A DNA stretch of 64,000 bases, from positions 22,641-86,640 of the forward strand of contig JANJUX010000033.1 in the NCBI GenBank assembly GCA_024710355.1. Direction: 5' to 3'. Both the position numbers and the translations under genes were made by a program. Position 1 is the stretch's first letter. Each line of letters begins with the position of its first letter. Positions 8,787 to 52,499 of the stretch are shown here, piece after piece. This DNA is from Candidatus Rifleibacteriota bacterium (GTDB lineage Bacteria; Muiribacteriota; Ozemobacteria; Ozemobacterales; Ozemobacteraceae). The notes beneath the pieces were generated by a model that was given only the letters and a program-made list of their open reading frames with translations, was not told the DNA's origin and made no database searches.

Positions 8787-9050
8787 TTAAGATAATTCTG
8801 CTATCAACTTGTCATAATCTGCGTGGCTACCAATCCAGAACCAGAGCAAGCCATCTGCGACCTCTACGGCAAGAGCTCGGTAACGAATACCCGCCCTGAC
8901 CGACCACAACCGCCCGATCTGTTTGAAGTTCAATGATGCGTGTTTCGGGTCTTTCTTTAGAAGTTCATAATTTTTGTCGGCGGTTTTTCTTATTCTGGCA
9001 GGCAATGCGTCATAGGCAGACCAGAAAGAAGAACTTGCGAAATGATTCAT
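8787..9050 (-). CDS. Type II toxin, ParE/RelE superfamily.
   Basis: 87 aa. The sequence WSVRAGIRYRALAVEVADGLLWFWIGSHADYDKL has the RelE/ParE fold signature. It overlaps its upstream partner by 4 bp. Confidence 0.65.
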   Translation of the reverse strand: MNHFASSSFWSAYDALPARIRKTADKNYELLKKDPKHASLNFKQIGRLWSVRAGIRYRALAVEVADGLLWFWIGSHADYDKLIAELS

Positions 9051-9250
9051 AGTTGCCTGGTTTTGCCGTCTTTATGCTCTGCAATCGCCTTGTTTATAAG
9101 AGAGTCCAGCTTTCCTGATGCACAGTCTCTCTCTATTTTTTCGTCCCATTTCTTAGCGTCAAAGCGATCAAACCATTCTCTAAAGTTCTGCAACTGGTCT
9201 TCAGACAACTGCTTAACAGCGTTTTCCAGGTCTTTAACCGGATTACTCAT
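9047..9250 (-). CDS. Antitoxin (putative addiction-module component, TIGR02574-like).
   Basis: 67 aa. The sequence LSEDQLQNFREWFDRFDAKKWDEKIERD is typical of this antitoxin family. It is translationally coupled (ATGA) to the toxin. Confidence 0.6.
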   Translation of the reverse strand: MSNPVKDLENAVKQLSEDQLQNFREWFDRFDAKKWDEKIERDCASGKLDSLINKAIAEHKDGKTRQL

Positions 9251-9440
9251 AATTTGGCCCCTGTTTACAGTCTTAACTTATGCCCGGAGGTGAAGTATTT
9301 TTCATTCTTGATATTCCATATTGGCATATCAAAATTTGTGAATTTATCGTCACACTCTACTTTTTTGGCCTGGTTCGGCAAGAATATGCCGCCGATCTGC
9401 CGGTAAGTCAAATAGAAATTGTGGCAGTGAACTGTTGGCG

Positions 9441-9812
9441 CTATTCTTTTCGACCGATTCCTTCTGCTATTAAAGAAGCGGCCAGAAAGTTCATGCTGAC
9501 ATTTTCTTTCTTTGCGAGCTTGATAAGCTTGGAATGTAGAGTTTTAGTGAGCCTGAGAACAAACTTGCCGCTTGCGTCGATCTCTTTGTATTTGTCGGCG
9601 CTGTAAGGCTTCGGAATCGGCTTGCCAAGCTCCTGCAAGGTCTGAATCAAACCCTTGAGAGCATCGCGCCCGTTTTCCATGGCCTCTTCAATCGTCTCAC
9701 CATCAGATATGCACTCGTTGAAGTCGGGGTAACTGATGAGAAAGCCGCCGCCTTCTTCTTTGGTGAGCGTGCGAATCTCGAAAGGATACTTGTCTAATTC
9801 AGTTTTTTTCAT
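9441..9812 (-). CDS. hicB: HicB-family antitoxin with a C-terminal RHH DNA-binding domain.
   Basis: 123 aa. The N-terminal YPFEIRTLTKEEGGGFLISYPDFNECISDGETIEEAMENGRDAL is the HicB RNase-H-like fold. The C-terminal LTKTLHSKLIKLAKKENVSMNFLAASLIAEGI is a ribbon-helix-helix. Confidence 0.75.
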   Translation of the reverse strand: MKKTELDKYPFEIRTLTKEEGGGFLISYPDFNECISDGETIEEAMENGRDALKGLIQTLQELGKPIPKPYSADKYKEIDASGKFVLRLTKTLHSKLIKLAKKENVSMNFLAASLIAEGIGRKE

Positions 9813-10039
9813 AGATATACCTCGATGAAAACAAGAAACTTCTGCACATAGACGGGCTTTATCGGCCTGTGTGCCGGAACAGTCAGAGAAACGCCGTCAT
9901 CTCTTACAAACTGCACATGGCTTGTGCCGTTTTGTCTCCAGACGATTCCATATCTGGAAGCAATGGCAGTTAAATCGGCAATGCGCCAATCACGCGGATT
10001 GTTGCGCATTTTTTCTATCGTTTTCTCTGCTTTGGTCAT
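9809..10039 (-). CDS. hicA: HicA-family mRNA-interferase toxin.
   Basis: 76 aa. WRQNGTSHVQFVRDDGVSLTVPAHRPIKP matches the HicA/YcfA core (G-SH...P-H). It overlaps hicB by 4 bp and lies upstream of hicB, as is canonical. Confidence 0.7.
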   Translation of the reverse strand: MTKAEKTIEKMRNNPRDWRIADLTAIASRYGIVWRQNGTSHVQFVRDDGVSLTVPAHRPIKPVYVQKFLVFIEVYL

Positions 10040-10192
10040 ATTTTAATGATACCGCATCTAATACTATTGTCAAGTATTACGCTGCGCCGACAAAACCTGA
10101 CAGCTCGCTAAAATAGAGAAGATGCTCCGGCCTAAGGGTGGCACACCTTACGGCGATACCACAGCCGAAACATCTTCAAGAACTTTAACGGT

Positions 10193-10402
10193 TCATCCGA
10201 CTAAAGCGTACTTTGTTTGATGAAGTGCTTTGATTTTGAGTTTAAAGAACTCCATATCTCGAAAGCCATATGCCTGGAGCTTCATGGTTTTGATTTTGTT
10301 GTTGAAGCCCTCTAGAGGGCCCGTTGAAATCTTGTAATCATAACATGCAAGTATTGCTGCTTCATGCAGCTCCACCGTCTTTGAAAATGTTTTTCTTTGA
10401 AG
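10193..10402 (-). pseudogene. ISL3-family transposase, C-terminal ~65-aa remnant only (degraded IS).
   Basis: AAILACYDYKISTGPLEGFNNKIKTMKLQAYGFRDMEFFKLKIKALHQ matches the conserved ISL3 C-terminus (TNGxxEGxNNKIKxIKRxAYGFRNxxxFxxRI). The sequence upstream in the same ORF (MPLIPSLRPPQEPQ...) is not transposase-like. Confidence 0.55.
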
Positions 10403-10493
10403 ATTATGATAAAGCAATCCTCTGTGTTGGCTTTGTTTTTGATTTTTGCCGGTCTGGCAACAGGTTGTTTTACCGAGACGCCAAAGAAGCCTG

Positions 10494-10646
10494 ATGCCGA
10501 AGCCATTACCCTGCACTTCGTGTAATGGAAGAGGAGTTTGCGGTTCCTGCGGGGGGCGAAGCGATGGAATTAGCGGCAAGATCTGTTCTTTCTGTGATTA
10601 CAAAAGCGTTTGCTGGAGCTGCAAAGGTAGCGGCAAAAGAGGTTAG
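10494..10646 (+). CDS. Possible small protein (50 aa) with four CxxC motifs, a DnaJ-type zinc-finger-like arrangement (CTSC-NGRG, CGSC-GGRS, CSFC, CWSC-KGSG).
   Basis: Internal ATG of ORF 10446..10646 with no convincing RBS. It lies in the degraded islet, so it could be a relic. Confidence 0.25.
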   Translation: MPKPLPCTSCNGRGVCGSCGGRSDGISGKICSFCDYKSVCWSCKGSGKRG

Positions 10647-11557: not shown

Positions 11558-12874
11558 ATGCGCAATTTCATGAATTTTCTGGCCGCGGTGCTTCTGTGCC
11601 TGGTTTTTGCCGGGCCTGCCAGCGCACAGCATGATAAATACTTTTTCATCACCCTGACCGGAAGAGCGGTGCTGTCGAGAACTTCAGGCTCTACGTGGCT
11701 TTCGCTGCAGCAGGCGCAGCCGGTTGAAGTCAAACCCGGCGACATGATCAACGTCGAAGGCGACGGTCGAGGCGAACTGCGGTTTCCTGATGGCAGCAGC
11801 GTCAAAATGAAAAACAACGCAATGATCACCATCATGCGCTATGGCATAAATCAACGCCTCGGCAACGTCTGGCTGAACGTGCGACGCAGCAGCGACATCT
11901 TCAAGGTAGTGACGCCCCTCGGCTCATGCAGCGTTCTCGGAACCTCTTTCGACGTCGACGTCGACCGTTACGGAAAAACCAAAGTAAGAGTCTTTTCCGG
12001 CCTTGTGGCGGTAAGAGCCGCAGAAGACAGCCGCAACCGTCAGCTGGTTCTGCAACCTGGCATGCACACAACCCTCTCAGAAAAAACAAAGGTTGCCGAC
12101 AAACCCGAAAAATTTCAGGCACCCACCATAGAGACATCCCTGAACAGTGAATGGGAAGCGCGCAACTTTACCGCTGCAGCTCCATCAGCTCTCGAGCAAA
12201 CCAGGCCGCTGCAGCACGACAGCAGAATACCCCCAGCCCTGCAACCGGCCGCCCCGGCACCTGGTTCGACCCAGACAATCCCCGCCCGTCCGAACATTCC
12301 CGAAGTGCAACCCGGCCGCATCGAAGCCCCGCCGGTTGGCCCGCTTGGAGGCTCTTCTACCGGCTCAGAAGCAAGTCTGCCACCAATAAGACCAGAGCTT
12401 CAATCTAACCTGCAGTTGCCCTCAGCCGGCGACGTTATCAAGGGCATAGAGCCTTCTCAGCCCAAAGATGGCGAAATCATGTCGCTGGCTCGGCAGCGGG
12501 CCGCTTTTCTCGAAATGCTTCGCCAGCAGAAAATCGACCGCGATTCAGTCATCGGCGGAAGCTTCAAAGAACGCGAAGAAATGGCAAAAGACCTGCACGG
12601 CCAGGAATCAGGCCAGCGCGCCAGACTATCTTTCAGCATCTCCGACAACGAGTCGCTCGACCGCGAAAACTGGCTGGTCAGAAACCGGCTGTTGCGCGTT
12701 CAGAGCCAGCTTCGCCAGAAAGAGCTCGAAGTTGCCGACCTGATTCGCCAGAACATTACAACCCCCTCTCATAAGCGGAAAATTTCAAATGCTCAGGCGC
12801 AACTTCTTGAGCTGCAAACAGAACAGAGAGTACTTTCAGACCGCATTCGCGATGTACAGACAAAAAAAAGATAA
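11558..12874 (+). CDS. Secreted FecR-domain protein with a Pro-rich linker and a C-terminal coiled coil.
   Basis: Signal peptide MRNFMNFLAAVLLCLVFAGPASA is present. The FecR-like beta region reads GDMINVEGDGRGELRFPDGSSVKMKNNAMITI...GSCSVLGTSFDV...TKVRVFSGLVAV. The C-terminus is heptad-rich (LELQTEQRVLSDRIRDVQ). Confidence 0.55.
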   Translation: MRNFMNFLAAVLLCLVFAGPASAQHDKYFFITLTGRAVLSRTSGSTWLSLQQAQPVEVKPGDMINVEGDGRGELRFPDGSSVKMKNNAMITIMRYGINQRLGNVWLNVRRSSDIFKVVTPLGSCSVLGTSFDVDVDRYGKTKVRVFSGLVAVRAAEDSRNRQLVLQPGMHTTLSEKTKVADKPEKFQAPTIETSLNSEWEARNFTAAAPSALEQTRPLQHDSRIPPALQPAAPAPGSTQTIPARPNIPEVQPGRIEAPPVGPLGGSSTGSEASLPPIRPELQSNLQLPSAGDVIKGIEPSQPKDGEIMSLARQRAAFLEMLRQQKIDRDSVIGGSFKEREEMAKDLHGQESGQRARLSFSISDNESLDRENWLVRNRLLRVQSQLRQKELEVADLIRQNITTPSHKRKISNAQAQLLELQTEQRVLSDRIRDVQTKKR

Positions 12875-12891
12875 AAAATTTTGCCAAAGCA

Positions 12892-12920
12892 TTGACAAAC
12901 CCGAAAACAGTTGGTACGAT
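12892..12920 (+). promoter_or_regulatory. Sigma-70-type promoter of the HU gene. The -35 is TTGACA, followed by a 17-bp spacer and -10 TACGAT.
   Basis: Read directly. The element lies 47 bp upstream of the GTG start, and an AGGAGG RBS sits at 12952-12957. Confidence 0.45.
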
Positions 12921-12967
12921 TTACTTGTGTTGAGTCCTAATTCAAGTTCCCAGGAGGATCCCCTTCA

Positions 12968-13252
12968 GTGAAAAAGATCGAACTCGTGCGCGAAATCGCA
13001 AAAACCACCAACATGACTCAGACCCAGGCTACCCAGGCTCTTGATGCCACGCTTTCTATCATCAAGAAAGCCCTCAAGAGAAAAGACGACGTACGTCTTG
13101 TAGGTTTTGGCTCTTTCAAGGTTAACACCCGCAAAGCCAGAACTGGCATCAACCCCCAGACCAAGAAGCCGATCAAAATTCCGGCATGCAACGTAGCCAA
13201 GTTCGTACCGGGCAAAGACCTGCGCGAACTCATCAACAACAAAAAGAAATAA
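12968..13252 (+). CDS. hup: HU-family nucleoid protein (DNA-binding protein HU/IHF fold).
   Basis: 94 aa. The HU signature GFGSFKVNTRKARTGINPQTKKPIKIPACNVAKFVPGKDLRE is present. Confidence 0.9.
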   Translation: MKKIELVREIAKTTNMTQTQATQALDATLSIIKKALKRKDDVRLVGFGSFKVNTRKARTGINPQTKKPIKIPACNVAKFVPGKDLRELINNKKK

Positions 13253-13271
13253 TCTTTAAGCGCACAAAAGG

Positions 13272-13304
13272 GCCGTTCCCGCAAGGGGGCGGCTCTTTTC
13301 TTTT
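13272..13304 (+). terminator. Rho-independent terminator downstream of the HU gene.
   Basis: The hairpin is GCCGUUCCC-GCAA-GGGGGCGGC with two G·U pairs, followed by tcttttctttt. Confidence 0.55.
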
Positions 13305-13451
13305 ACCTTAAACGCAGACTTAGAAAGGTTTCAGGGCAGGATTGATATGCCATTCCTGGCGCAGCACCGGAACCCAGAGGTTTGATACGATTGCCCTGTG
13401 AGGTTAAGATACTGCTTGCCTTAGTTTTAACCATCAGGTAAATTATTGGAC

Positions 13452-15110
13452 ATGACTACACAGAAAAAACGTCTGGGCGATATTCTCATCGACTGCAACC
13501 TCATAACCGAAGAGCAGCTGAAGCAGGCTCTCACGTTTCAGCGCGACCGCGGCATGAAGCTGGGCGAAGCTCTTTCCGAAATGGGTCTGGTTACCGAAGA
13601 CGATATAATCTGGGCCCTTGGCAATCAGCTGAATATCTCGTTCATTCATCTGAACCCGGATATCGTCGACACTGAAGTTACAAAAATGATCACCCCCGAA
13701 TTTGCGCGTGATCACAAGCTCATGCCTCTTTACAAGGCCGGCAACCAGCTCAGTGTCTGTATGGTCGACCCCCTCGACTCTCGACCAATCGAGTTTCTCG
13801 AAGGAAAATTCGGTGCCACGGTTTCGGTTTCGATCTGTACCGCGTTCGATTTTGAGCAGACTTATTCTGCCATTTACGGGCCAATCGACGTTCAGGAAAA
13901 AGTCGCACCCGGCGAAATCGACAACACCGAAAAGCAGAACCTTGAGCGCGGCATTCCCAAAGGCATGGAAGGCCCCGAAAAGGTCATCAACTATATTCTT
14001 GGCCAGGCGATTATCAACAAAGTCAACCGCATTCACTTTGAACCATCAGATAAGGGCGTGTTGATCAGATTCAGATCTAACAATGTTCTCGCACGCAAGA
14101 TCGAGATTCCGGTCAAAGTGCACCACGAAGTAATTTCGCGCCTTAAAAAACTTTCGCAGATCCCTGAAAAGGATATGGCCCGCGAAGGCGTTGTTGTCGG
14201 TCATTTCAGAGTCACGGTTTCGAACCGCCAGGTCAATATTCAGTCAATTTTTTATCCGACCGTGAACGGCGAAATGGTGATTCTCAAACTCAGCGACTTT
14301 GGCAGTATCATCGAACAGCTTGGCCGCTCCGGCAAAGCCTCGATCGAAGAGCTTCTCGTTGCCGCCAGAAACACGCACGGCGTTCTTTATGTTACCGGGC
14401 CACGAGAATCCGGGCGCACAACGACGCAATACTGTATAATCAGCGGCTACGATGCAGAAACCCGCAAACTGGTGACAATCGAAAACCCTGTGGTTGCAGC
14501 TCTCCCCAAAACTACACAGATTCAGATCGGCTCGGGCGGCATCGAAGACGCAATATCTGCCCTGAAGCTTGCATTGATGCTCGATGCGGACATCATCTAT
14601 CTCGATGATCTCGTTGGCCGTGACCTGACCCAGGAAGTCGCTTTCGCGGCACTTGGCGGCAAAACCGTATTAACCTCATTTCTTGCCTATGACGCTTCAA
14701 GCAGTCTGGTCAAGCTGATAGAAACCGGAGTAGACCCGGTTCTTATCGCGTCTTCAATGTGTGGCGTCGTCAGCCAGAGACTTGTCAGAGTCCTGTGCCC
14801 GAAATGCCGACAGCCGGCCGAGATCCCCCCCGAAGTTCTAGAACTGTTAAACGACGAAGACAAAAGCAAACAGATTTTCAAGGCAAAAGGCTGCGAGGGT
14901 TGCAACAACACCGGCTATACAGGCCGCACGCTGATTACCGAGTTCATGCCAGCCACCGCCACCCTCAGGCAGATGATCATCAACCGCCAGTCCTATCAGG
15001 ATTTCAAGAGTTTTGCCCGTAAACAGGGTATCAAAAGCCTCGAAGAAAAAACCCTCGATATGATGCTGAACGGCGAAACCAGCGCCGATGAATTTATGAG
15101 GCTGTTCTAA
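13452..15110 (+). CDS. GspE/PilB-family protein with an MshEN-like N-terminal domain and a catalytically degenerate ATPase domain (pseudo-ATPase).
   Basis: The N-terminus RLGDILIDCNLITEEQLKQALTFQ....KLGEALSEMGLVTEDDIIWALGNQ matches the tandem RLGxxLxxxGxxxxxxLxxALxxQ MshEN/T2SSE_N motif. The C-terminal tetracysteine motif CPKCRQP...CEGCNNTGYTGR is present. Walker A reads GPRESGRTT (K to R, and 'TGSGK' is lost). The Asp box reads TIENP (D to N). Walker B is DDLVGRD (the catalytic Glu is lost). The His box reads VLTSFLAYDA (His lost). Confidence 0.8.
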   Translation: MTTQKKRLGDILIDCNLITEEQLKQALTFQRDRGMKLGEALSEMGLVTEDDIIWALGNQLNISFIHLNPDIVDTEVTKMITPEFARDHKLMPLYKAGNQLSVCMVDPLDSRPIEFLEGKFGATVSVSICTAFDFEQTYSAIYGPIDVQEKVAPGEIDNTEKQNLERGIPKGMEGPEKVINYILGQAIINKVNRIHFEPSDKGVLIRFRSNNVLARKIEIPVKVHHEVISRLKKLSQIPEKDMAREGVVVGHFRVTVSNRQVNIQSIFYPTVNGEMVILKLSDFGSIIEQLGRSGKASIEELLVAARNTHGVLYVTGPRESGRTTTQYCIISGYDAETRKLVTIENPVVAALPKTTQIQIGSGGIEDAISALKLALMLDADIIYLDDLVGRDLTQEVAFAALGGKTVLTSFLAYDASSSLVKLIETGVDPVLIASSMCGVVSQRLVRVLCPKCRQPAEIPPEVLELLNDEDKSKQIFKAKGCEGCNNTGYTGRTLITEFMPATATLRQMIINRQSYQDFKSFARKQGIKSLEEKTLDMMLNGETSADEFMRLF

Positions 15111-15112
15111 CA

Positions 15113-16552
15113 ATGAGCGACAATTTTTTCGGCAAACTGTTCGGCGGGGAAGCCCCCCCGGGCGACGATAATAAACCAAAAGCACCAACCGCACCACCGT
15201 CTGCGCCCATGCCGGCAAGGCCACCCGCGCCTCCTCCCGGTGCCGGCGGCCCGCCGCTTCGCCCTGCCATGCCTGGCGGCCCGAGTGCTCCGACTCAGCC
15301 AGCCGGCGCACCGGCAAGACCGCCAATGCCACCGGCCGGGCAACCGTTGCCACCCAGACCAGCAGCGCCTGCTGCTCCTGGTCAGGCTCCTCAACCAGCA
15401 CGACCAACTGGCATACCGTCGACTATCTCGCAGGGTGCAATGCAAAGACCGGCACCCTCTGCGAGCCAGAAAGACGATGATGATGGCGAAGTCATTATCG
15501 ATGACCTGCTGCGCCTGATTGTCGACAAAAGCGGCTCCGACCTGCACCTTACAGTTGGCTCTCCACCGATGCTGCGCCTGCAGGGCAAGCTCTGGCCAAC
15601 CGATATTCCCTCACTGACTGCCAAAGAAACCCGGCGCCTGATTTTTCAGTTTCTCAACAACGACCAGCGCGAAAGACTCGAACGCGACCTCGAACTCGAC
15701 ATTTCGTATGAACTCGAAGGCGTGGCACGCTTCCGCTGCAATATCTTTTTCACCCGACTTGGCATGGGCGGGGTTTTCCGCGTCATCCCGACCCGCATCA
15801 AAACTCTGGCCGAACTGAAGCTGCCCGCAATTCTCGGTGATCTCGCCAGGCGAAACAAAGGCCTGATTCTGGTTACCGGCCCTACCGGCTCAGGTAAATC
15901 GACTACTCTGGCCGCCATGGTCGACCAGGTCAACAATGAACGCCAGGACCACATTCTCACTATCGAAGACCCGATCGAATTCGTGCACCAGCACAAGACC
16001 TGCCTGGTTAACCAGCGCGAAATCGGCCCAAATACCAAATCCTTTTCGGCCGCACTCAGATCGGCACTGCGCGAAGATCCTGACATCATTCTCGTCGGCG
16101 AAATGCGCGATTACGAAACCATCTCGCTGGCCGTAACCGCCGCCGAAACCGGCCACCTTGTCTTTGCAACTCTGCATACCCCGTCTGCCGCACAGTCGGT
16201 CGACCGTATCGTCGACGTTTTTCCGGCCCACCAGCAGGACCAGATCAGAACCCAGCTTGCCGACGCCCTGCAGGGAATCATTGCCCAGCAGCTGATCCCG
16301 ACCATTGACGGCATGAGTCGCGAAGTCGCGCTCGAAATTCTCATCAACACTCCGGCCGTCGCCAACCTGATCCGCGACAATAAAACCTTCCAGTTGCCCT
16401 CGATCATGCAGACCAGCAAACAGGCCGGCATGCAGACCATGGACCAGGCACTCATGGATCTGGTCAAACAGCGCAAGATCAGCCCCCAGGAAGCCTATCG
16501 ACGTGCCTTTGACAAAAAAGCCTTCGAACAATACAAGCCCAGAGAATATTAA
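15113..16552 (+). CDS. pilT: Type IV pilus retraction ATPase PilT with a ~125-aa Pro/Ala-rich N-terminal extension.
   Basis: The core starts at DDLLRLIVDKSGSDLHLTVGSPPMLRLQGKL. Walker A GPTGSGKSTT, Asp box TIEDPIEF, Walker B ILVGEMRD, His box FATLHT and the PilT-specific AVANLIRD (AIRNLIRE motif) are all intact. Residues 1-125 are low-complexity (PPSAPMPARPPAPPPGAGGPPLRPAMPGG...). Confidence 0.88.
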   Translation: MSDNFFGKLFGGEAPPGDDNKPKAPTAPPSAPMPARPPAPPPGAGGPPLRPAMPGGPSAPTQPAGAPARPPMPPAGQPLPPRPAAPAAPGQAPQPARPTGIPSTISQGAMQRPAPSASQKDDDDGEVIIDDLLRLIVDKSGSDLHLTVGSPPMLRLQGKLWPTDIPSLTAKETRRLIFQFLNNDQRERLERDLELDISYELEGVARFRCNIFFTRLGMGGVFRVIPTRIKTLAELKLPAILGDLARRNKGLILVTGPTGSGKSTTLAAMVDQVNNERQDHILTIEDPIEFVHQHKTCLVNQREIGPNTKSFSAALRSALREDPDIILVGEMRDYETISLAVTAAETGHLVFATLHTPSAAQSVDRIVDVFPAHQQDQIRTQLADALQGIIAQQLIPTIDGMSREVALEILINTPAVANLIRDNKTFQLPSIMQTSKQAGMQTMDQALMDLVKQRKISPQEAYRRAFDKKAFEQYKPREY

Positions 16553-24813: not shown

Positions 24814-26517
24814 ATGAGTCTGCTCGACATCACAACCGGCGTCATTCTGCTTTCGGCTCTGGCCGGGATCTCTGCCGGCCTTGACAAGCTTGCCGGCACT
24901 CTGCTGTATCTGGCCCTGCTGGTTGGCAGCCAATATTTCAACAATCTCTGCCGACAACTTGCCGGCGATGACTGCTGGCTGCAGAATCGCCTTATGCAGC
25001 GCGGTTTCAGCCGCATTCAGACCGGCAAAACCCTGCGTATTACCGGTGCCATGTCGATTGCAGGCCTGTGCGGTCTGCTGTTGTATCAGGTTTACCGACT
25101 TTCTCTGGGGTTTAGCCTGACGGTTTACGATTCTTTCAATTTTCGTTTTTTCTACCTGGCAATTCATCTTCTTCTGATTTTTTATGCGGTTTTTGCCGTA
25201 AGAACTCTGCAGCTGCTCGAAAAACCAGACTTATCGGCCCGCTGGTACCGTGGGCTTGGCTACTTGAGCGGTTATCAGTCGCTGATTTTTGCAGTTTTCC
25301 TGCTGGCTTCATATCTGCCCGAGGCAGAGAGCGATGTTTTGAATGCCTATGTCGACTATGGCTTTTTCTCGGTATTTATCGGCATGGCATTGCTGGGTGC
25401 CGAAATTTTGACCGCTGCCATCCGCAGCCTGCGTCAGGCATTTTCCGGCAGCATTCAGACAGAACTGCCGGTTCCGTTTTTCATCAGTTTCTTTGCCGCA
25501 GAGAACACAATTAAAAAGAGCCTGATACGCAGCATCGAAAGCATTTCTGGAATCGATGTCTCCAGGTCTGAAATCATCGCTTTCGGCCTGCGCATTCTCG
25601 AACCGGTTCTCATAACCGCTTTTCTCGCAGTATGGCTCACATCGGCAATTGTCATCGTTCCGGCTGACCAGCAGGCGATTTTCAGACATTTCGGCAGGAT
25701 AACCGGCAGCAATGCAGCCGGGCCGGGTTTACACCTCAAGCTGCCCTGGCCCTTCGCTACCGTCGAGCTGCACAGGCCGCACCAGATTCGCACCCTCAAC
25801 ATTGGCTTCGAGCCTGACCCAAAGCAGAAAAACATCATCTGGGCAAAGCCACATGCGACTAATTATTTTCACCTGATTGTCGGCAATGGGGTAGAAATCA
25901 TCGCCATCGACTGCCAGGTTCTCTTTCGGGTCGACAACCTGTTCAGATACGTCACCAGCATGCAGAACCCTGAAGAATTCATCAGCGCCACCGCCTACCG
26001 GCATCTGACCCGCGAAACCGTCGCAGCCGCGTTCGACGAGATCATCACGCGCGACCGCAGAATTCTGGCCGATCAGCTGCGTCGAAATATCCAGGTTGAC
26101 CTTGACGCAGCTGGCCTTGGCGCCGCAGTTGTCGAAGTGGTATTTCTCGCCATGCACCCGCCAATCGAGGTTGCGGAGGCCTACGAAGATGTTATCAGCG
26201 CTCAAACAGATAAATTAACCTACGTATTAAAGGCAAACACCGAAAACACGCATAAAATGTTCATGAGCAAAGCAAATGCTCACAGCAAAGAATTCGAAGC
26301 CAGAAGTTACGCCGCCAACACCGTTGCAAAAGCGATTGGCGATGCCTCTTCGTTTTCAAGCCGTTCGGCTGCCTTCGAGGCCGAACCCGATCTGGAAAAG
26401 TTCAGACTGCGTCTCGACCGCCTGCAGCAGCTTCTGAGCGGCAAGCCCTTTTATGTTGTCGACAAAACTCTCATGCGCAGCAACGATAAAATGTATCTGA
26501 ATCTGCAAACATGGTAA
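24814..26517 (+). CDS. SPFH/band-7 domain protein fused to a ~280-aa polytopic N-terminal membrane domain.
   Basis: There are about 8 hydrophobic helices within residues 1-280. The HflK-like core then begins at VPADQQAIFRHFGRITGSNAAGPGLHLKLPWPFATVELHRP. Confidence 0.7.
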   Translation: MSLLDITTGVILLSALAGISAGLDKLAGTLLYLALLVGSQYFNNLCRQLAGDDCWLQNRLMQRGFSRIQTGKTLRITGAMSIAGLCGLLLYQVYRLSLGFSLTVYDSFNFRFFYLAIHLLLIFYAVFAVRTLQLLEKPDLSARWYRGLGYLSGYQSLIFAVFLLASYLPEAESDVLNAYVDYGFFSVFIGMALLGAEILTAAIRSLRQAFSGSIQTELPVPFFISFFAAENTIKKSLIRSIESISGIDVSRSEIIAFGLRILEPVLITAFLAVWLTSAIVIVPADQQAIFRHFGRITGSNAAGPGLHLKLPWPFATVELHRPHQIRTLNIGFEPDPKQKNIIWAKPHATNYFHLIVGNGVEIIAIDCQVLFRVDNLFRYVTSMQNPEEFISATAYRHLTRETVAAAFDEIITRDRRILADQLRRNIQVDLDAAGLGAAVVEVVFLAMHPPIEVAEAYEDVISAQTDKLTYVLKANTENTHKMFMSKANAHSKEFEARSYAANTVAKAIGDASSFSSRSAAFEAEPDLEKFRLRLDRLQQLLSGKPFYVVDKTLMRSNDKMYLNLQTW

Positions 26518-26530
26518 AGAAGGTGATTAT

Positions 26531-27421
26531 ATGCAATTCTGGCTGAGACTGCTTCTCGCCATACTGCTTCTCGGTCTTGTTTCCTACAAGGCCTTCATTC
26601 TGCCGCTGCCAGAAGGCTTCAAGGCCGTAATTGCCCATCTCGGAAAACCCGACCGCATCATCGAAACCCCGGGGGCACACCTTAAATGGCCATGGCCGGT
26701 CGACAATTTCTATCTCTTCGACTGCCGCAACCGCATTTACAACACCCGCTTCACCCAGACTCTGACACGCGATAAAAAGGCCATAATTCTGCTCACCTAC
26801 ATCGTCTGGCGCGTTCAGCAGCCACTCACCTTTCTGCAGTCAGTCGGAACCATGACTAACGCCGAAGACAAGATCGAGGGCCTGGTATCGAGCTCAAAAA
26901 ATAACGTTCTCGGCAACTATGACCTCGCCAACCTCGTGTCAACTGACCCAGCCCAGCTGAAACTTGCCGAAATCGAAAGCCAAATTCTCGAATCGGTCAG
27001 GGAAAAGGCCCGCGAAAGCTTTGGCGTCGAAATCGTCAGCCTCGGCGTCAAGCGACTCGCCTACCCCGAAAACAACATCAAAGCGATATTCAGCCAGATG
27101 CGTGCCGAAAGAGGCCAGTATGCCGCCAAATACCGCGCCGAAGGCCGTATGGAAGCAGCCATCATTCTCTCTGAAACTGACCTCGAAATTGCCCGCATCA
27201 ACGCCGAGGCGGTAAAAACCTCAGCCGAAATCAAAGGCAAAGCCGACCGTGAAGCCGCTGAAATTTATGCCGAAGCTCACAAAAAAGGTCGCGAATTCTA
27301 CAAGTTCAGCCGCTCGCTTGAAGCGCTCGAAAAGATGGTCAATGAAAACGCAGTATTCATTCTGCGCAGTGACCAGGCCCCCTTCGACGCCCTGAACGGA
27401 AACCAGAACGATGGCAACTGA
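26531..27421 (+). CDS. SPFH/band-7 protein, HflC-like.
   Basis: A signal-anchor is followed by an SPFH core (RIIETPGAHLKWPWPVDNFYLFD) and a C-terminal coiled coil. Confidence 0.7.
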   Translation: MQFWLRLLLAILLLGLVSYKAFILPLPEGFKAVIAHLGKPDRIIETPGAHLKWPWPVDNFYLFDCRNRIYNTRFTQTLTRDKKAIILLTYIVWRVQQPLTFLQSVGTMTNAEDKIEGLVSSSKNNVLGNYDLANLVSTDPAQLKLAEIESQILESVREKARESFGVEIVSLGVKRLAYPENNIKAIFSQMRAERGQYAAKYRAEGRMEAAIILSETDLEIARINAEAVKTSAEIKGKADREAAEIYAEAHKKGREFYKFSRSLEALEKMVNENAVFILRSDQAPFDALNGNQNDGN

Positions 27422-28493
27422 CAAAACCCGCACAATCAGCCCGCTGATAAAAACCATCGGTGACTTCATGACCCTGCTGAAGGTAGTCATGGCGCTGGTT
27501 TTTGTCGGGTATTGCCTCTCGGGGCTGACATTGATCAGGCCCGACGAAATCGGTCTGATACTGAGAATGGGTAAACTGCATGGCAGCACACCGGTCGATC
27601 AGATTCTCAACCCCGGCTGGGTTCTTGCCCTGCCAAAACCCTTCGACGAAGTGCTGCGGATTCCGGTCAAACAGATTCAGCAGGTAAAAATCAAAGAGCT
27701 TGCCGCCATCGAAAAAAAAGAAGAGGCAGACTATCGCACGATTGACCCGCTGAATGAGGGTTATTGCGTCAGTGGCGATGCCAACATCTTTCAGGCCAGT
27801 ATACTGGTTAAATACCAGATCAGCGACCCGATAAAAGCTGTTTTCGGCTTCTCGGCATCATATCAGACATTCAGTTCACTCGTGCATGACCTCACTGTCG
27901 CTGAAATGACTCGGGTTGCGGCCGGTTTCCCGATTGACGGGCTTTTGTCCGAAAGCAAAAAAGAGCTGTCAACTCAGGTTAAAGAACGGGTTCAGAAACA
28001 ACTCGACCGGGTTCAAACCGGCCTGGCGCTGGTCTCGCTCGAAATAGAAGAAATTGCACCGCCCACCTACCTCAGGAAAGACTTTGAAGAGGTCAATTCG
28101 GCCTTTATCAACCGCCACAATTTTATCAACGATGCCCGCAGCCTCAGCGAAGAAAAACTGCCGAAAGCCCGCGGCAACGCCGAAGAAATGATTAACAGGG
28201 CCAGGTCTTATCACCAGACCGTTGTTGCCGAGGCAACTGCCAACGCCGGCAGATTCAATCAACTTCTGACTGCCTGGCAGAACAACCCCGAAGAAGTCAG
28301 ACTCGAAATGACCGCTAAAGTTCAGAAACTGGTAATAGAAAAAATGCGGCGCATGGTAGTTGTTCCCGGCGGGTCGGCGGCTGCCGCCGGCGTCAGACTG
28401 ATGTTCGACACCAGCACCGGCTCCTCTCTTCCGGTTCCGACTAACGTCAACCCCGCTTACGACGAGCTTGCAGAAGAGGAAGAAGAAGATTAA
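27411..28493 (+). CDS. SPFH/band-7 protein, HflK-like.
   Basis: An N-terminal TM helix is followed by an SPFH core (IRPDEIGLILRMGKLHGS...GWVLALPKPFDEV), a coiled coil and an acidic tail EEEEED. The stop abuts the ATPase start. Confidence 0.7.
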   Translation: MATDKTRTISPLIKTIGDFMTLLKVVMALVFVGYCLSGLTLIRPDEIGLILRMGKLHGSTPVDQILNPGWVLALPKPFDEVLRIPVKQIQQVKIKELAAIEKKEEADYRTIDPLNEGYCVSGDANIFQASILVKYQISDPIKAVFGFSASYQTFSSLVHDLTVAEMTRVAAGFPIDGLLSESKKELSTQVKERVQKQLDRVQTGLALVSLEIEEIAPPTYLRKDFEEVNSAFINRHNFINDARSLSEEKLPKARGNAEEMINRARSYHQTVVAEATANAGRFNQLLTAWQNNPEEVRLEMTAKVQKLVIEKMRRMVVVPGGSAAAAGVRLMFDTSTGSSLPVPTNVNPAYDELAEEEEED

Positions 28494-36107: not shown

Positions 36108-37502
36108 TTGGCAGTGATTTTTTGCTCGATTCTTCTGTTATTTATAACAGATGAGCTTTTTTCCAGCTCTCAAACACCACCGAAAGCTTCAAACATTGAA
36201 TTGGCGCATCTCAGACAGACCAGAAATGCTTCCGACAGTCTGTCTTTAAAAGCCGAAATGGCACGCAGCAAGGCTGCCGCCAGAATTTTCGGGGGCAAAA
36301 GAGTAGTCAACTTCACCCCCCGTCGCGATTTCCTCGGAACAAGAGAGTTTGAGCTGCAACGAATTATTGGGCTCAAGCCGGCAAGCGACAGCCTGCAACT
36401 GGCGCTGGAACATAAAAAGCAGTTTTCCCGCCCCAGACTGGAACTCGATGAATTTATCGCACTCTGCCACTGGGAAACCGGAAATATAGAAGAGGCCGTA
36501 AAACTAAGTAATGAGGTTCTGAACAAGAAAGAAAGTGTCAGCCTCCGGCAAAAGCTTTTCAATTCAGAGCTCAATCGTGGCTATTACGACACCGCAAAGC
36601 ACCACCTGAAACACTCAGGGCTCCCCAGAATCGCCCATTTAAAATCTCTCCTGCATTTCTTCTATTTGCGTTCAGGCCTGTATGCTTTTCTTTTCTGGGT
36701 GTTTTTACTGGTTACTTTAGGTGCGCTCGCCATCAGATTTTTTCTGCAATTATTCCCATTTGAAAAATTCAGTCAATTTTTCTTTCACAGACATAAAATA
36801 CAAACCACGACCGGTTTCCCTCTCAGTGAACCTGCAGTTATTTCACAAAAACCTGCTGGCAGCGAAAATCAGAGCAGCACGTCCGAAACAGTCACAAATC
36901 AGGACTCAACGCCCCTCCAGGGAACTAATTCCGACCTTCCTGCCAGCAAAGCTCAGTCAACGACACGACTACAGATGTTTGAAGAACTGGTTACCAGCAA
37001 AATGCTGCGGGTTATCGGTGTTTCATCGCAAAAAGAAAGTTTCAACCGCCTGGCACTGGCTCTTAAGCTTGCGATAAATTTTTCCAAAGCAGATTTTCAG
37101 ACCCTTATCATCGATGCCAACAGTTCAAAACCATATATCCATGAGATCAAAACCTGTAAAAGTTCTCCCGGCCTTTCTGACTGCTTCAATCAGACATTCG
37201 AAATCGAAACTTTCTGTCAGAAAACCAGTAGCCCCAACCTTAGAATTCTGGCTCGCGGCAGCCAGGTCATGCCATTGGCTGTTCTGCAGCCACATCAATG
37301 GAAAAGCCTGATACAGGCCTGTCAAAAAAGCTTCGACATCGTAATCGTCAATTTTCCCGGCATAATCAACCTGAAAGATAATCCAGAAACCCTGCAATCG
37401 GTTGAAATACTGGTGATAGATGGCACGGCAGACCCAGAAATCGAGATATACAAACCAATTGGAGCTGAAACAGAGCTTTATTTCTGGAACAGGAAGGGTT
37501 GA
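36108..37502 (+). CDS. BY-kinase/ParA-like P-loop homologue with a degenerate Walker A (pseudo-kinase) and one TM helix. Low-GC gene.
   Basis: The C-terminal domain reads MLRVIGVSSQKESFNRLALALKLAINFSKADFQTLIIDAN...SPGLSDCF...NLRILARGSQVMPLAVLQPHQWKSLIQACQKSFDIVIVNFPGI. It parallels the CpsD/Wzc-type BY-kinase consensus (VIxVTSxxPGEGKST...LLIDxD...GLSxxL...NLxVLxxGxxPPNP...YDxIIIDTPP), but the GEGKST motif is replaced by QKESF. It starts with TTG, and the start is uncertain. Confidence 0.5.
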   Translation: MAVIFCSILLLFITDELFSSSQTPPKASNIELAHLRQTRNASDSLSLKAEMARSKAAARIFGGKRVVNFTPRRDFLGTREFELQRIIGLKPASDSLQLALEHKKQFSRPRLELDEFIALCHWETGNIEEAVKLSNEVLNKKESVSLRQKLFNSELNRGYYDTAKHHLKHSGLPRIAHLKSLLHFFYLRSGLYAFLFWVFLLVTLGALAIRFFLQLFPFEKFSQFFFHRHKIQTTTGFPLSEPAVISQKPAGSENQSSTSETVTNQDSTPLQGTNSDLPASKAQSTTRLQMFEELVTSKMLRVIGVSSQKESFNRLALALKLAINFSKADFQTLIIDANSSKPYIHEIKTCKSSPGLSDCFNQTFEIETFCQKTSSPNLRILARGSQVMPLAVLQPHQWKSLIQACQKSFDIVIVNFPGIINLKDNPETLQSVEILVIDGTADPEIEIYKPIGAETELYFWNRKG

Positions 37503-37506
37503 GGAC

Positions 37507-49941: not shown

Positions 49942-49963
49942 TAAAAAAAGAGGTGTCTGGCTG

Positions 49964-52478: not shown

Positions 52479-52499
52479 ACAGACCTATAAAAGTTAAAC

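What the first reader, a model, noticed from the sequence alone, without database searches (positions are those of the whole stretch)
13452..15110. PilB/GspE homologue with an MshEN-like c-di-GMP-binding N-domain but a fully degenerate ATPase active site
The N-terminal ~60 aa carry the tandem RLGxxLxxxGxxxxxxLxxALxxQ motif characteristic of MshEN/T2SSE_N c-di-GMP receptor domains. The C-terminal tetracysteine zinc motif of GspE-type ATPases is retained. Every catalytic element is mutated. Walker A reads GPRESGRTT, so the Lys is replaced by Arg. The Asp box reads IENP. The Walker B Glu is absent. The His-box His is absent. This looks like a dedicated pseudo-ATPase, possibly a c-di-GMP sensor that partners with the intact PilT encoded 3 bp downstream. 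I do not recall such a pseudo-PilB being described.
Basis: partly seen in the sequence, partly recalled or inferred. Interest (0 to 1): 0.8.

Follow-up and report, generated by a model that had tools for sequence, protein, structure and literature searches.

The report
Catalytically dead PilB paired with PilT
Bacteria of the uncultured phylum Rifleibacteriota all carry a second copy of the pilus-building motor PilB that keeps its c-di-GMP sensor domain but has lost its ATP-splitting residues, and it always sits directly in front of the pilus-retracting motor PilT, so it is probably a signal-sensing regulator rather than a motor.

Summary
Window 13452..15110 (+) encodes a 552-aa PilB/GspE-fold protein. 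It has an intact MshEN c-di-GMP motif and an intact CxxC…CxxC zinc motif. Its catalytic residues are replaced:
- Walker A GPTGSGKT is GPRESGRT.
- The catalytic Glu after Walker B is lost.
- Both His-box His and all three N2D arginines are lost.

This is not an error or a decaying gene. The same substitutions occur in about 90 protein clusters and in 47 species-level genomes, all Rifleibacteriota. dN/dS is 0.02-0.03, as low as for the neighbouring PilT. The pocket is remodelled rather than degraded: the replacement residues are conserved, and four of six cationic positions stay cationic. The MshEN bundle is the best-conserved part.

An intact PilT follows immediately in 42 of 42 assessable loci. 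This PilT has a proline-rich N-terminal extension that starts with a MinD-MTS-like peptide. The same phylum also has a fully canonical PilB, next to a platform protein and pilins at another locus.

Best reading: a c-di-GMP-sensing, non-hydrolysing PilB paralogue that regulates or adapts PilT. I found no published description. All functional claims are inferred from sequence.

The parts
13382..13410 (+). Promoter-like site (TTGATA-17-TAAGAT) about 40 nt upstream of the start codon
   Evidence: Consensus scan only. It lies after a strong terminator at 13266..13299 that closes the HU gene. This suggests that pseudo-PilB and PilT form their own transcription unit.
13452..15110 (+). Pseudo-PilB gene, 552 aa: MshEN N1 domain, N2D, and a CTD with a zinc motif
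   Evidence: ORF; Pfam and NCBIfam. AlphaFold2 model with pLDDT 81.4. Foldseek target-normalised TM-score 0.84 to G. metallireducens PilB 5tsh_E. dN/dS 0.023-0.031.
13470..13628 (+). MshEN c-di-GMP-binding four-helix motif (aa 7-59): RLGDILIDCNLITEEQLKQALTFQ, RDRGM, KLGEALSEMGLVTEDDIIWALGNQ
   Evidence: NF053729 scores 63.7 bits against a cutoff of 38. Gap-free alignment to MshE 5HTL. R7, L8, G9, Q30, L37, G38 and Q59 are invariant or nearly so in 86 homologues, and this is the most conserved region of the protein. The motif definition comes from PMC11731258 and PMC12943098.
13629..13883 (+). MshEN C-terminal subdomain (aa 60-144), including the invariant D106 that corresponds to MshE D108
   Evidence: Pfam PF05157 on aa 61-144; alignment to MshE; invariant columns.
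14187..14288 (+). Remodelled N2D arginine positions: PQDGR is GVVVGH (H251 in 99% of the family), DxR is NIQ (Q264 in 97%), R279 is K
   Evidence: Per-column comparison of 86 clade sequences against 26 canonical sequences; coordinates.
14397..14420 (+). Remodelled Walker A, GPRESGRT (canonical GPTGSGKT)
   Evidence: In the family: R318 88%, E319 100%, R322 94% (otherwise K), T323 97%.
14475..14495 (+). Altered Asp box, TIENPVV (canonical TIEDPVE)
   Evidence: In the family: E344 100%; position 345 is D 48%, N 28%, S 10%; the canonical Glu at position 348 is replaced by V, Q or I.
14583..14618 (+). Altered Walker B, DADIIYLDDLVG (canonical DPDIIMVGEIRD). Gly is replaced by an invariant Asp385. 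The catalytic Glu position is variable.
   Evidence: In the family: D385 99%; position 386 is H 45%, K 14%, D 8%; the following canonical R and D are not conserved.
14655..14690 (+). Altered His box, GGKTVLTSFLAY (canonical TGHLVLSTLHTN)
   Evidence: K404 (98% of the family) replaces the first His. L or M at position 411 replaces the second.
14796..14903 (+). Retained tetracysteine zinc motif, CPKC…CEGC (C449, C452, C481, C484)
   Evidence: 100% conserved in both clade and canonical sequences.
15113..16552 (+). Intact PilT retraction ATPase (479 aa), starting 2 nt after the pseudo-PilB stop codon
   Evidence: TIGR01420 scores 487.8 bits against a cutoff of 319.1. GPTGSGKS, EDPIE, GEMRD and TGHLVFATLHT are all present. 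It is directly downstream of pseudo-PilB in 42 of 42 assessable loci, with a median gap of 3 nt.
15113..15487 (+). PilT N-terminal extension (about 125 aa, about 30% Pro), beginning with the conserved peptide MSDNFFGKLFGG (15113..15148)
   Evidence: Present in all 42 loci: 99-205 aa, median 128, with a conserved FFGKLFGG head. It resembles the E. coli MinD membrane-targeting sequence KGFLKRLFGG (sequence quoted in PMC5471200). This is a resemblance only and its function is untested. The two other PilT paralogues in L043 are 347 and 362 aa, so they lack the extension.
11558..13252 (+). Conserved upstream neighbours: a secreted FecR-domain protein (11558..12874) and HU (12968..13252)
   Evidence: Pfam. 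The order FecR, HU, pseudo-PilB, PilT is kept in most of the 47 loci. A functional link is not shown.
49961..52478 (+). Cluster of pilin-like genes elsewhere in the window (prepilin motifs VTFIEI and AFTLIEV)
   Evidence: PF07963 and TIGR02532 matches; sequences. This shows that the organism encodes type IV filament subunits. The cluster is not similar to the pilins at the canonical PilB locus.

Best explanation
The gene encodes a non-catalytic paralogue of the type IV pilus extension ATPase PilB, here called pseudo-PilB. It is conserved across the phylum Rifleibacteriota.

It keeps four things: the PilB fold, the zinc-binding tetracysteine motif, a phosphate-binding-type P-loop, and above all the N-terminal MshEN domain that binds c-di-GMP in MshE, PilB and PilF.

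It has lost every residue that PilB-family motors need to hydrolyse ATP and to close the N2D/CTD interface: the Walker A Lys, the catalytic Glu, both His-box His and the N2D arginines.

The most likely mode of action is as a c-di-GMP receptor with no motor activity. It would control, recruit or gate the PilT retraction ATPase, with which it is co-transcribed and probably translationally coupled. It could do this by occupying the motor-docking site of the pilus platform, or by acting as an adapter ring.

Pilus extension itself is powered by a separate, canonical PilB encoded beside the platform protein and the pilins.

Shown here: sequence, fold, conservation, selection and gene linkage. Inferred: c-di-GMP binding, absence of hydrolysis, and physical or functional coupling to PilT and to the pilus machine.
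For: Catalytic residues are replaced family-wide.
- 86 homologues carry the same replacements, while 26 canonical relatives have 100% GPTGSGK[ST], GE(I)RD and TGH..LHTN.
- The PilB and GspE equivalog models score 267.5 and 268 bits, against cutoffs of 675.65 and 630.25. The phylum's canonical PilB scores 632 and 604.6.

The protein is functional.
- dN/dS is 0.023-0.031 at dS of about 0.6, equal to or lower than PilT.
- The ORF is intact in 47 species-level genomes.

Constraint has shifted to the sensor domain.
- In the clade, the MshEN bundle has a mean majority-residue frequency of 0.86 and the CTD core 0.70. In canonical PilBs the CTD core is highest, at 0.80.
- The MshE c-di-GMP contact residues R9, Q32 and D108 are conserved. 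Their roles are described in PMC5013675 and PMC12943098.

The phylum has c-di-GMP enzymes.
- A CHASE2-GAF-GGDEF protein is encoded in L021.
- A GAF-HD_5 protein, an HD-GYP-type domain, is encoded in L001.

The link to PilT is tight.
- PilT is directly downstream in 42 of 42 loci, with a median gap of 3 nt.
- The pair has its own promoter-like site after a terminator.

A canonical motor exists elsewhere.
- Rifleibacteriota encode a fully canonical MshEN-PilB next to a GspF/PilC-like protein and pilins, with no PilT at that locus.
- One MAG, ADurb.Bin157, has both proteins.

There is a precedent. Walker-box-dead PilT still works as a structural partner for PilU in V. cholerae (review PMC11656802).
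Against: - There is no biochemical or genetic data. The phylum is uncultured.
- The P-loop is very strongly conserved (G316, P317, E319, S320, G321, K/R322, T323), and a classical Walker-B-like Asp385 has appeared. Nucleotide binding is therefore likely, and weak or unconventional hydrolysis cannot be excluded.
- The deepest branch (P0091) and about 6% of members keep the Walker A Lys.
- Motif I of MshEN has Asn where the consensus has Gly, at position 10. This falls outside even the relaxed [GAS] set of Wang et al.. The same Asn does occur in canonical PilBs such as Wallbacteria P0145.
- Gene adjacency is the only evidence for a PilT partnership.
- The neighbourhood is otherwise housekeeping (HU, TypA), not pilus genes.
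Confidence: 0.55

Rival explanations
1. It is still an NTPase with an unconventional active site. Arg322 and Thr323 would bind the phosphates and Mg, and Asp385 would act as a classical Walker B residue. It would then work as a slow motor or a nucleotide-dependent switch rather than as a dead scaffold.
For: - The P-loop is the most invariant stretch of the CTD.
- Position 322 is always basic (R 94%, K 6%), T323 is 97% conserved, and D385 is 99% conserved, giving an hhhhD pattern.
- Four of six cationic pocket positions are replaced by other cationic residues: K to R, R to H, R to K and H to K.
Against: - The catalytic Glu position is not conserved (H, K, D and others).
- Both His-box His residues, the last Glu of the Asp box and all three N2D arginines are gone.
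- The review PMC11656802 states that all PilB-type ATPases have a catalytic glutamate.
- Walker A Lys-to-Arg substitutions in RecA-type ATPases classically retain binding but abolish hydrolysis. This is from my own knowledge and was not tested here.
Confidence: 0.15
2. It acts on the canonical PilB rather than on PilT. It would either co-assemble into mixed hexamers as a poison subunit, or compete for c-di-GMP and for the platform. Either way it would throttle extension when c-di-GMP changes. The linkage to PilT would then only ensure co-expression of two antagonists of extension.
For: - It shares the full three-domain architecture and the zinc motif with the canonical PilB of the same phylum.
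- Both carry MshEN motifs.
- An independent degenerate PilB-like protein (P0235) sits in a gene order of canonical PilB, response regulator, degenerate PilB.
Against: - It is only about 30% identical to the phylum's canonical PilB in N2D plus CTD, no closer than to any other PilB. Preserved hetero-oligomer interfaces are therefore not evident.
- It is never encoded next to the canonical PilB within 10 kb in 47 loci.
Confidence: 0.12
3. The pseudo-PilB/PilT pair works outside pilus dynamics. It could be a c-di-GMP receptor or buffer, or a module for another process such as DNA uptake, secretion or signalling to exopolysaccharide synthesis. M. xanthus PilB signals in this way independently of piliation.
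For: - The conserved neighbours are HU, TypA/BipA and a FecR-domain protein, not pilus genes.
- The review reports that PilB acts as a regulator of EPS independently of pilus assembly (PMC11656802).
Against: - The partner is a bona fide PilT by a curated model.
- The phylum has pilins, a platform protein and a canonical PilB.
Confidence: 0.13
4. It is a decaying pseudogene, an assembly error or a sequencing error.
For: None, beyond the loss of the catalytic residues.
Against: - The ORF is intact in 47 genomes and about 90 protein clusters from independent assemblies.
- dN/dS is about 0.03.
- The replacement residues are themselves conserved.
Confidence: 0.01

Closest known systems
c-di-GMP-binding extension ATPases with an MshEN (GSPII) N-domain: V. 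cholerae MshE, M. xanthus and C. thermophilum PilB, T. thermophilus PilF, C. perfringens PilB2
   Same: The architecture is identical: an MshEN four-helix c-di-GMP motif, the MshEN C-subdomain, N2D, and a CTD with tetracysteine. The best PDB sequence and fold matches are PilF and PilB.
   Different: All of those are active motors with canonical Walker A, catalytic Glu, His box and arginines. Here every one of these is replaced, and the protein scores far below the PilB and GspE equivalog cutoffs.
The canonical PilB/GspE of Rifleibacteriota itself (for example P0163, 584 aa)
   Same: It comes from the same phylum and has the same domain order, the same MshEN motif and the same zinc motif.
   Different: It has canonical catalytic motifs. 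It is encoded with a GspF/PilC-like platform protein and pilins, not with PilT. It is only about 30% identical to pseudo-PilB. It evolves more slowly: 86% against 62% identity for comparable lineage pairs.
Walker-box-inactive PilT supporting PilU-driven retraction in V. cholerae (engineered mutants), and PilU's dependence on PilT
   Same: An ATPase-dead member of the PilT-like family still functions as a structural partner or adapter for another motor (review PMC11656802).
   Different: That case is a laboratory mutant of PilT. This one is a natural, anciently fixed PilB-type paralogue with a c-di-GMP sensor domain.
The FimX-PilZ-PilB system of Pseudomonas and Xanthomonas
   Same: A protein with degenerate enzyme domains serves as a c-di-GMP receptor that controls a type IV pilus motor (PMC11656802).
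   Different: The degenerate domains there are GGDEF, EAL and PilZ, and they act on PilB. Here the degenerate enzyme is a PilB copy itself, and it is linked to PilT.
Archaellum FlaH (a RecA/KaiC-like ATP-binding, non-hydrolysing partner of the motor ATPase FlaI). This comparison is from my own knowledge.
   Same: A nucleotide-binding but non-catalytic partner of a type IV filament motor ATPase.
   Different: It belongs to an unrelated fold family, is not a paralogue of the motor, and has no c-di-GMP domain. It was not tested here.
Other sporadic degenerate PilB-like proteins found here (P0235, P0167)
   Same: They have MshEN plus T2SSE architecture with a lost Walker A Lys, catalytic Glu or His box.
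   Different: They are singletons from metagenomes with different substitutions and different gene contexts. P0235 is next to a canonical PilB and a response regulator. P0167 is next to a chemoreceptor. They are not part of the Rifleibacteriota family.

Membership tests
PilB/GspE-type secretion ATPase (Pfam T2SSE PF00437; NCBIfam TIGR02538 and TIGR02533) | Sequence match to the T2SSE domain above the Pfam gathering score | tested here: met
   196.5 bits against a cutoff of 24.9, aa 176-550.
PilB/GspE-type secretion ATPase (Pfam T2SSE PF00437; NCBIfam TIGR02538 and TIGR02533) | Three-domain fold: N1D, N2D, and CTD with a zinc subdomain | tested here: met
   AlphaFold2 model with pLDDT 81.4. Foldseek gives a target-normalised TM-score of 0.84 and rmsd 3.5 Å to PilB 5tsh_E. 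C449, C452, C481 and C484 are 100% conserved.
PilB/GspE-type secretion ATPase (Pfam T2SSE PF00437; NCBIfam TIGR02538 and TIGR02533) | Score above the curated equivalog cutoff for PilB or GspE | tested here: not met
   267.5 against 675.65 for PilB, and 268 against 630.25 for GspE. The phylum's canonical PilB scores 632 and 604.6.
PilB/GspE-type secretion ATPase (Pfam T2SSE PF00437; NCBIfam TIGR02538 and TIGR02533) | Walker A GxxxxGK[ST] with the catalytic Lys | tested here: not met
   GPRESGRT here. Arg is present in 94% of the family.
PilB/GspE-type secretion ATPase (Pfam T2SSE PF00437; NCBIfam TIGR02538 and TIGR02533) | Catalytic Glu following the atypical Walker B (hhhhGE) | tested here: not met
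   GE is replaced by D385 followed by a variable residue: Asp in the window, and H, K, D or others in the family. The catalytic Glu is stated to be universal in PMC11656802.
PilB/GspE-type secretion ATPase (Pfam T2SSE PF00437; NCBIfam TIGR02538 and TIGR02533) | Asp box, His box and N2D arginines | tested here: not met
   EDPVE is ENPVV. TGH..LHTN is GGK..FLAY. PQDGR is VVVGH. DxR is NIQ. R279 is K.
PilB/GspE-type secretion ATPase (Pfam T2SSE PF00437; NCBIfam TIGR02538 and TIGR02533) | ATP hydrolysis and pilus or pseudopilus assembly activity | not testable with these tools
   Needs purified protein or genetics.
MshEN / GSPII c-di-GMP receptor domain | Two 24-residue motifs (R/K/L)LGxx(L/V/I)(L/V/I)xxG(L/V/I)(L/V/I)xxxxLxxxLxxQ separated by 5 residues | tested here: met
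   R7..Q30, a 5-residue spacer, then K36..Q59, 53 residues in total. There are two deviations: N16 in place of Gly in motif I, and S42 in motif II. The family consensus at position 42 is Ile.
MshEN / GSPII c-di-GMP receptor domain | Score above curated cutoffs (NF053729, PF05157) | tested here: met
   63.7 against 38 and 45.6 against 23.1.
MshEN / GSPII c-di-GMP receptor domain | Residues equivalent to the MshE c-di-GMP contacts R9, Q32 and D108 | tested here: met
   R7, Q30 and D106, from a gap-free alignment to 5HTL. R7 and Q30 are 100% conserved in 86 homologues, and D106 is invariant in the 33-sequence alignment.
MshEN / GSPII c-di-GMP receptor domain | Measured c-di-GMP binding | not testable with these tools
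   Needs ITC, DRaCALA or a similar assay.
PilT retraction ATPase (downstream gene 15113..16552) | Score above the TIGR01420 cutoff and intact catalytic motifs | tested here: met
   487.8 against 319.1. GPTGSGKS, EDPIE, GEMRD and TGHLVFATLHT are present.
Pseudogene or decaying gene | Disrupted ORF or relaxed selection (dN/dS near 1) | tested here: not met
   The ORF is intact in 47 genomes. dN/dS is 0.023-0.031.

The most novel reading that the evidence does not exclude
Pseudo-PilB is a new class of type IV pilus regulator: a c-di-GMP-gated, catalytically dead 'motor mimic'. It would dock on the pilus platform in place of PilB. From there it would load or release a membrane-tethered PilT, whose conserved N-terminal FFGKLFGG peptide on a proline-rich leash serves either as a MinD-like membrane anchor or as the docking peptide for pseudo-PilB. 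This would put pilus retraction, and not only extension, under direct c-di-GMP control. A variant of this reading is that the remodelled cationic pocket has been repurposed to bind a second signalling nucleotide instead of ATP.
Probability: 0.3. Interest if true: 0.8.

Novelty: new variant of a known kind. Interest (0 to 1): 0.62.

Why it matters
Type IV pili are driven by antagonistic hexameric ATPases that swap at the base of one machine. Two questions are open: how the swap is controlled, and what the c-di-GMP-binding N-domain of PilB does mechanistically, given that c-di-GMP barely changes MshE ATPase activity in vitro (PMC5013675).

A natural PilB copy that has kept the sensor and the scaffold but discarded catalysis, and that is hard-wired to PilT across a whole phylum, separates the sensing and docking role of PilB from its motor role.

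If it binds c-di-GMP and PilT, it would be the first dedicated pseudo-enzyme among type IV filament motors. It would also give a route by which c-di-GMP controls retraction, and it could be a useful static mimic for structural work on motor docking.

It also shows that annotation pipelines label these proteins as active enzymes ('ATPase, T2SS/T4P/T4SS family', 'PilB', 'TadA').

Tried and rejected
- **Other secretion ATPases in the window.** I searched the 64-kb window for further T2SSE-family genes and found only pseudo-PilB and PilT.
- **Canonical PilB near pseudo-PilB.** I looked within 10 kb on each side in 47 genomes and found none.
- **Orthology by synteny.** I tested whether pseudo-PilB is the degenerated ortholog of a canonical pilB-pilT pair, using the Wallbacteria PilB locus. 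That locus has a different context with no PilT, so this gave no support.
- **Origin by phylogeny.** A neighbour-joining tree of N2D plus CTD shows a monophyletic clade on a long stem. The clade is equally distant (27-31% identity) from all canonical PilBs, including the phylum's own. The origin is unresolved, and the grouping with other degenerate proteins is probably long-branch attraction.
- **Nearest canonical relatives by profile score.** The top hits were Nitrospirota multi-MshEN PilBs. Their scores are inflated by repeated N-domains, so they are not informative.
- **Literature.** Searches on Riflebacteria pili, on pseudo-ATPase with type IV pilus, on degenerate Walker A with PilB and on MshEN architectures found no description of such a protein. 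They also found nothing on Riflebacteria pili.
- **Active-site geometry.** No geometric analysis of the pocket was possible.
- **Pseudogene and sequencing-error explanations.** Both were rejected.
Full report
**1. What is at the coordinates**

Window 13452..15110 (+) is a 552-aa ORF running from ATG to TAA. An alternative TTG two codons upstream is not supported, because 95% of homologues begin at the Met.

Upstream lie a 15-bp-stem terminator that closes the HU gene (13266..13299) and a promoter-like site (13382..13410). The next gene starts at 15113, two nucleotides after the stop codon.

The protein matches Pfam T2SSE (196.5 bits, aa 176-550) and MshEN (45.6 bits, aa 61-144). It also matches the NCBIfam c-di-GMP motif NF053729 (63.7 bits against a cutoff of 38, aa 7-59).

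Its best matches among solved structures are T. thermophilus PilF, Geobacter PilB, M. xanthus PilB and Vibrio GspE. An AlphaFold2 model (mean pLDDT 81.4) superposes on G. metallireducens PilB with a target-normalised TM-score of 0.84 and rmsd 3.5 Å. It is therefore a full-length PilB/GspE-fold protein.

**2. The catalytic site**

I compared the protein residue by residue with solved PilBs. I also made a per-column comparison of 86 close homologues against 26 canonical homologues.

| Element | Canonical | This protein | Conservation in the family |
|---|---|---|---|
| Walker A | GPTGSGKT | GPRESGRT | R318 88%, E319 100%, R322 94% (otherwise K), T323 97% |
| Asp box | TIEDPVE | TIENPVV | E344 100%; position 345 D 48%, N 28%; the terminal Glu is lost |
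| Walker B | DPDIIMVGEIRD | DADIIYLDDLVG | Gly replaced by Asp385 (99%); catalytic Glu position variable; the following R and D lost |
| His box | TGHLVLSTLHTN | GGKTVLTSFLAY | K404 98%; position 411 L or M |
| N2D arginines | PQDGR, DxR, R279 | VVVGH, NIQ, K279 | H251 99%, Q264 97%, K279 81% |
| Tetracysteine | CxxC…CxxC | C449, C452, C481, C484 | 100% |

The protein scores 267.5 bits on the curated PilB equivalog model and 268 on the GspE model. The cutoffs are 675.65 and 630.25.

**3. Remodelled, not decayed**

The replacement residues are themselves conserved. Of the six cationic pocket positions, four are replaced by another cationic residue: K to R, R to H, R to K and H to K. A new Arg also appears at position 318. 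Position 322 is always K or R. The Mg-binding Thr323 is kept. Gly385 has become an invariant Asp, which gives a classical hhhhD Walker-B look.

The deepest branch of the family (P0091, 46% identity) already has E319, H251, D385 and K404 but still has the Walker A Lys (GPGESGKT). Loss of the catalytic Glu, the His box and the arginines therefore came before the K-to-R change.

My reading, which is an inference, is that the pocket still binds a phosphate-bearing ligand, most simply ATP or ADP, but cannot hydrolyse it or drive domain closure. Walker A K-to-R is the classical 'binds but does not hydrolyse' substitution in RecA-type ATPases. That statement is from my own knowledge.

**4. The sensor domain**

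Residues 7-59 form two 24-residue MshEN repeats separated by five residues: RLGDILIDCNLITEEQLKQALTFQ, RDRGM, KLGEALSEMGLVTEDDIIWALGNQ. This is exactly the published architecture (PMC11731258; PMC12943098).

The domain aligns without gaps to the V. cholerae MshE N-domain (5HTL). MshE R9, Q32, R38 and D108 correspond to R7, Q30, K36 and D106. R9, Q32 and D108 are the experimentally implicated contacts. Lys at the first position of a motif is accepted by the extended consensus.

One deviation is Asn16, where the consensus has Gly. This also occurs in canonical PilBs.

Within the family the MshEN bundle is the most conserved region, with a mean majority-residue frequency of 0.86. The CTD core, which is the most conserved part of canonical PilBs (0.80), drops to 0.70. 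Selection has moved from catalysis to sensing.

**5. Distribution and selection**

A search of 5.8 billion proteins returned about 93 clusters at 46-97% identity. All that carry a taxon name are Riflebacteria, Rifleibacteriota or Ozemobacter. Identity then drops sharply to 34%, where the canonical PilBs begin.

A profile search of 1.84 billion cluster representatives collapses the family into two full-length representatives plus two fragments. Only 3 of the next 146 representatives have any degenerate motif.

A scan of one genome per GTDB species found 47 loci. All are Rifleibacteriota MAGs, a few with evidently wrong taxon labels but the same synteny. One is a complete 5.2-Mb chromosome. The window is closest (96-97% identity) to Ozemobacteraceae MAGs.

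dN/dS is 0.023-0.031 where dS is unsaturated (about 0.6). PilT in the same genome pairs gives 0.023-0.043.

Over longer distances pseudo-PilB evolves faster than the phylum's canonical PilB. For comparable lineage pairs, pseudo-PilB is 62% identical, the canonical PilB 86% and PilT 70%.

**6. Gene context**

The downstream gene is a bona fide PilT (TIGR01420, 487.8 bits against a cutoff of 319.1) with all motifs intact. PilT follows pseudo-PilB in all 42 loci whose contigs extend far enough. The median intergenic gap is 3 nt. Upstream, the order FecR-domain protein then HU is kept in most loci, and TypA/BipA follows PilT in many.

This PilT always carries an N-terminal extension of 99-205 aa with about 25% proline. 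The first residues of the extension form a conserved peptide, MSDN(D)FFGKLFGG. The peptide resembles the E. coli MinD membrane-targeting sequence KGFLKRLFGG (quoted in PMC5471200). This is a resemblance, not a test. Two other PilT paralogues in one genome lack the extension.

**7. A canonical PilB exists in the same phylum**

Using a Wallbacteria PilB as a stepping stone, I found about 16 named Rifleibacteriota PilB/GspE proteins of 578-590 aa. All their motifs are canonical: LPQDGR, DLR, GPTGSGKT, TVEDPVE, DPNVILIGEIRD and TGHLVFSTLHTN, plus the zinc motif and two RLG..Q repeats. They score near the equivalog cutoffs, 632 and 604.6 bits.

They are encoded in a compact type IV filament operon. 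It contains the ATPase, a GspF/PilC-like platform protein, a GFxxxE pilin, three minor pilins and a weak PilM-like protein. There is no PilT.

At least one MAG, ADurb.Bin157, holds both proteins. The window itself also holds a separate cluster of pilin-like genes at 49961..52478.

The phylum encodes c-di-GMP enzymes as well: a CHASE2-GAF-GGDEF protein with an RxxD I-site and a GAF-HD_5 protein.

**8. Mechanism**

The division of labour in the genome suggests the following. One locus holds the canonical PilB with the platform protein and pilins. Another holds pseudo-PilB with PilT. From this I infer that pseudo-PilB is a c-di-GMP receptor built on a motor scaffold, and that it controls the retraction motor. 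It could do so by occupying the motor-docking site of the platform, or by acting as an adapter ring for PilT.

There are two partial precedents. Walker-box-dead PilT still supports PilU-driven retraction, and M. xanthus PilB has a signalling role that does not need pilus assembly (PMC11656802).

What is shown: sequence, fold, conservation, selection, linkage, and co-occurrence with a canonical system. What is inferred: ligand binding, absence of hydrolysis, and the partnership with PilT and the pilus machine.

The rivals are an unconventional active NTPase, a poison subunit or competitor of the canonical PilB, a role outside pili, and a pseudogene. Each is weighed in its own section of this report. 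Only the pseudogene is excluded.

**9. Novelty**

I found no description of a naturally catalytically dead PilB/GspE paralogue in reviews of PilB regulation, in MshEN papers or in targeted searches. Public annotations call these proteins active ATPases.

Sporadic independent degenerate PilB-like proteins do exist. P0235 lies in a gene order of canonical PilB, response regulator, degenerate PilB. P0167 lies beside a chemoreceptor. The phenomenon may therefore be wider than this phylum.

I file this as a new variant of a known kind. It belongs to the PilB/GspE fold family and carries an MshEN domain. It fails the defining catalytic features of the motor family.

Noticed in passing
window 15113..15487 (motif at 15113..15148); also L004-L049: The PilT linked to pseudo-PilB has a proline-rich N-terminal extension of about 125 aa in all 42 loci. 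It starts with a conserved peptide, MSDN(D)FFGKLFGG, that resembles the E. coli MinD membrane-targeting sequence KGFLKRLFGG. Two other PilT paralogues in L043 lack it. It could be a membrane tether or a docking peptide.
   Followed up: partly
window 12968..13252: The HU gene has an unusually low synonymous divergence. Its dS is 0.03-0.05, against about 0.6 for the adjacent pseudo-PilB and PilT genes in the same genome pairs. Possible causes are strong codon bias, an RNA-level constraint or recent exchange.
   Followed up: no
window 49961..53258: A cluster of three pilin-like genes (prepilin motifs VTFIEI and AFTLIEV) is followed by a weak FecR-like protein and UvrA. It is not similar to the pilins at the canonical PilB locus. 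The FecR-like plus UvrA pair lies next to the pseudo-PilB locus in L043.
   Followed up: partly
window 11558..12874: A secreted FecR-domain protein with a proline-rich middle and a coiled-coil C-terminus is syntenic with HU, pseudo-PilB and PilT in most Rifleibacteriota genomes. Whether it belongs to the same system is unknown.
   Followed up: no
L051 153..4048 (JGI metagenome 3300037479): An independent degenerate PilB-like protein (P0235: SPDGNGRT, SHVRD, DGK..PAH) lies in a gene order of canonical MshEN-PilB, response regulator, degenerate PilB.
   Followed up: partly
L052 1120..3663: Another degenerate MshEN-T2SSE protein (P0167, 847 aa) has an intact Walker A but has lost the catalytic Glu, the His box and the arginines. 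It lies next to a cyclophilin-like protein and a chemoreceptor.
   Followed up: no
L043 14181..18792 (-): Two tandem PilT-like paralogues (347 and 362 aa) lie upstream of an 828-aa HEAT/TPR protein, within 7 kb of the pseudo-PilB/PilT pair in one Rifleibacteriota MAG.
   Followed up: no
window 37420..47001: A very large ORF (3193 aa) has PA14 and GLEYA adhesin-type domains. The rest has no Pfam match.
   Followed up: no
window 8787..10579 (-): A small mobile or toxin-antitoxin-like patch, judged by eye from the translations only: a RelE/ParE-like ORF, a HicB-like ORF, and what looks like the C-terminal remnant of an ISL3-type transposase.
   Followed up: no
window 24814..28493: Three consecutive SPFH/Band 7 genes precede a P-type ATPase.
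   Followed up: no
L011, L015, L018, L019: Four records with the same locus and synteny are labelled Erysipelotrichia, Methylomirabilis or Avigastranaerophilus in their titles. Their sequences nest inside the Rifleibacteriota family, so the labels are probably wrong.
   Followed up: no
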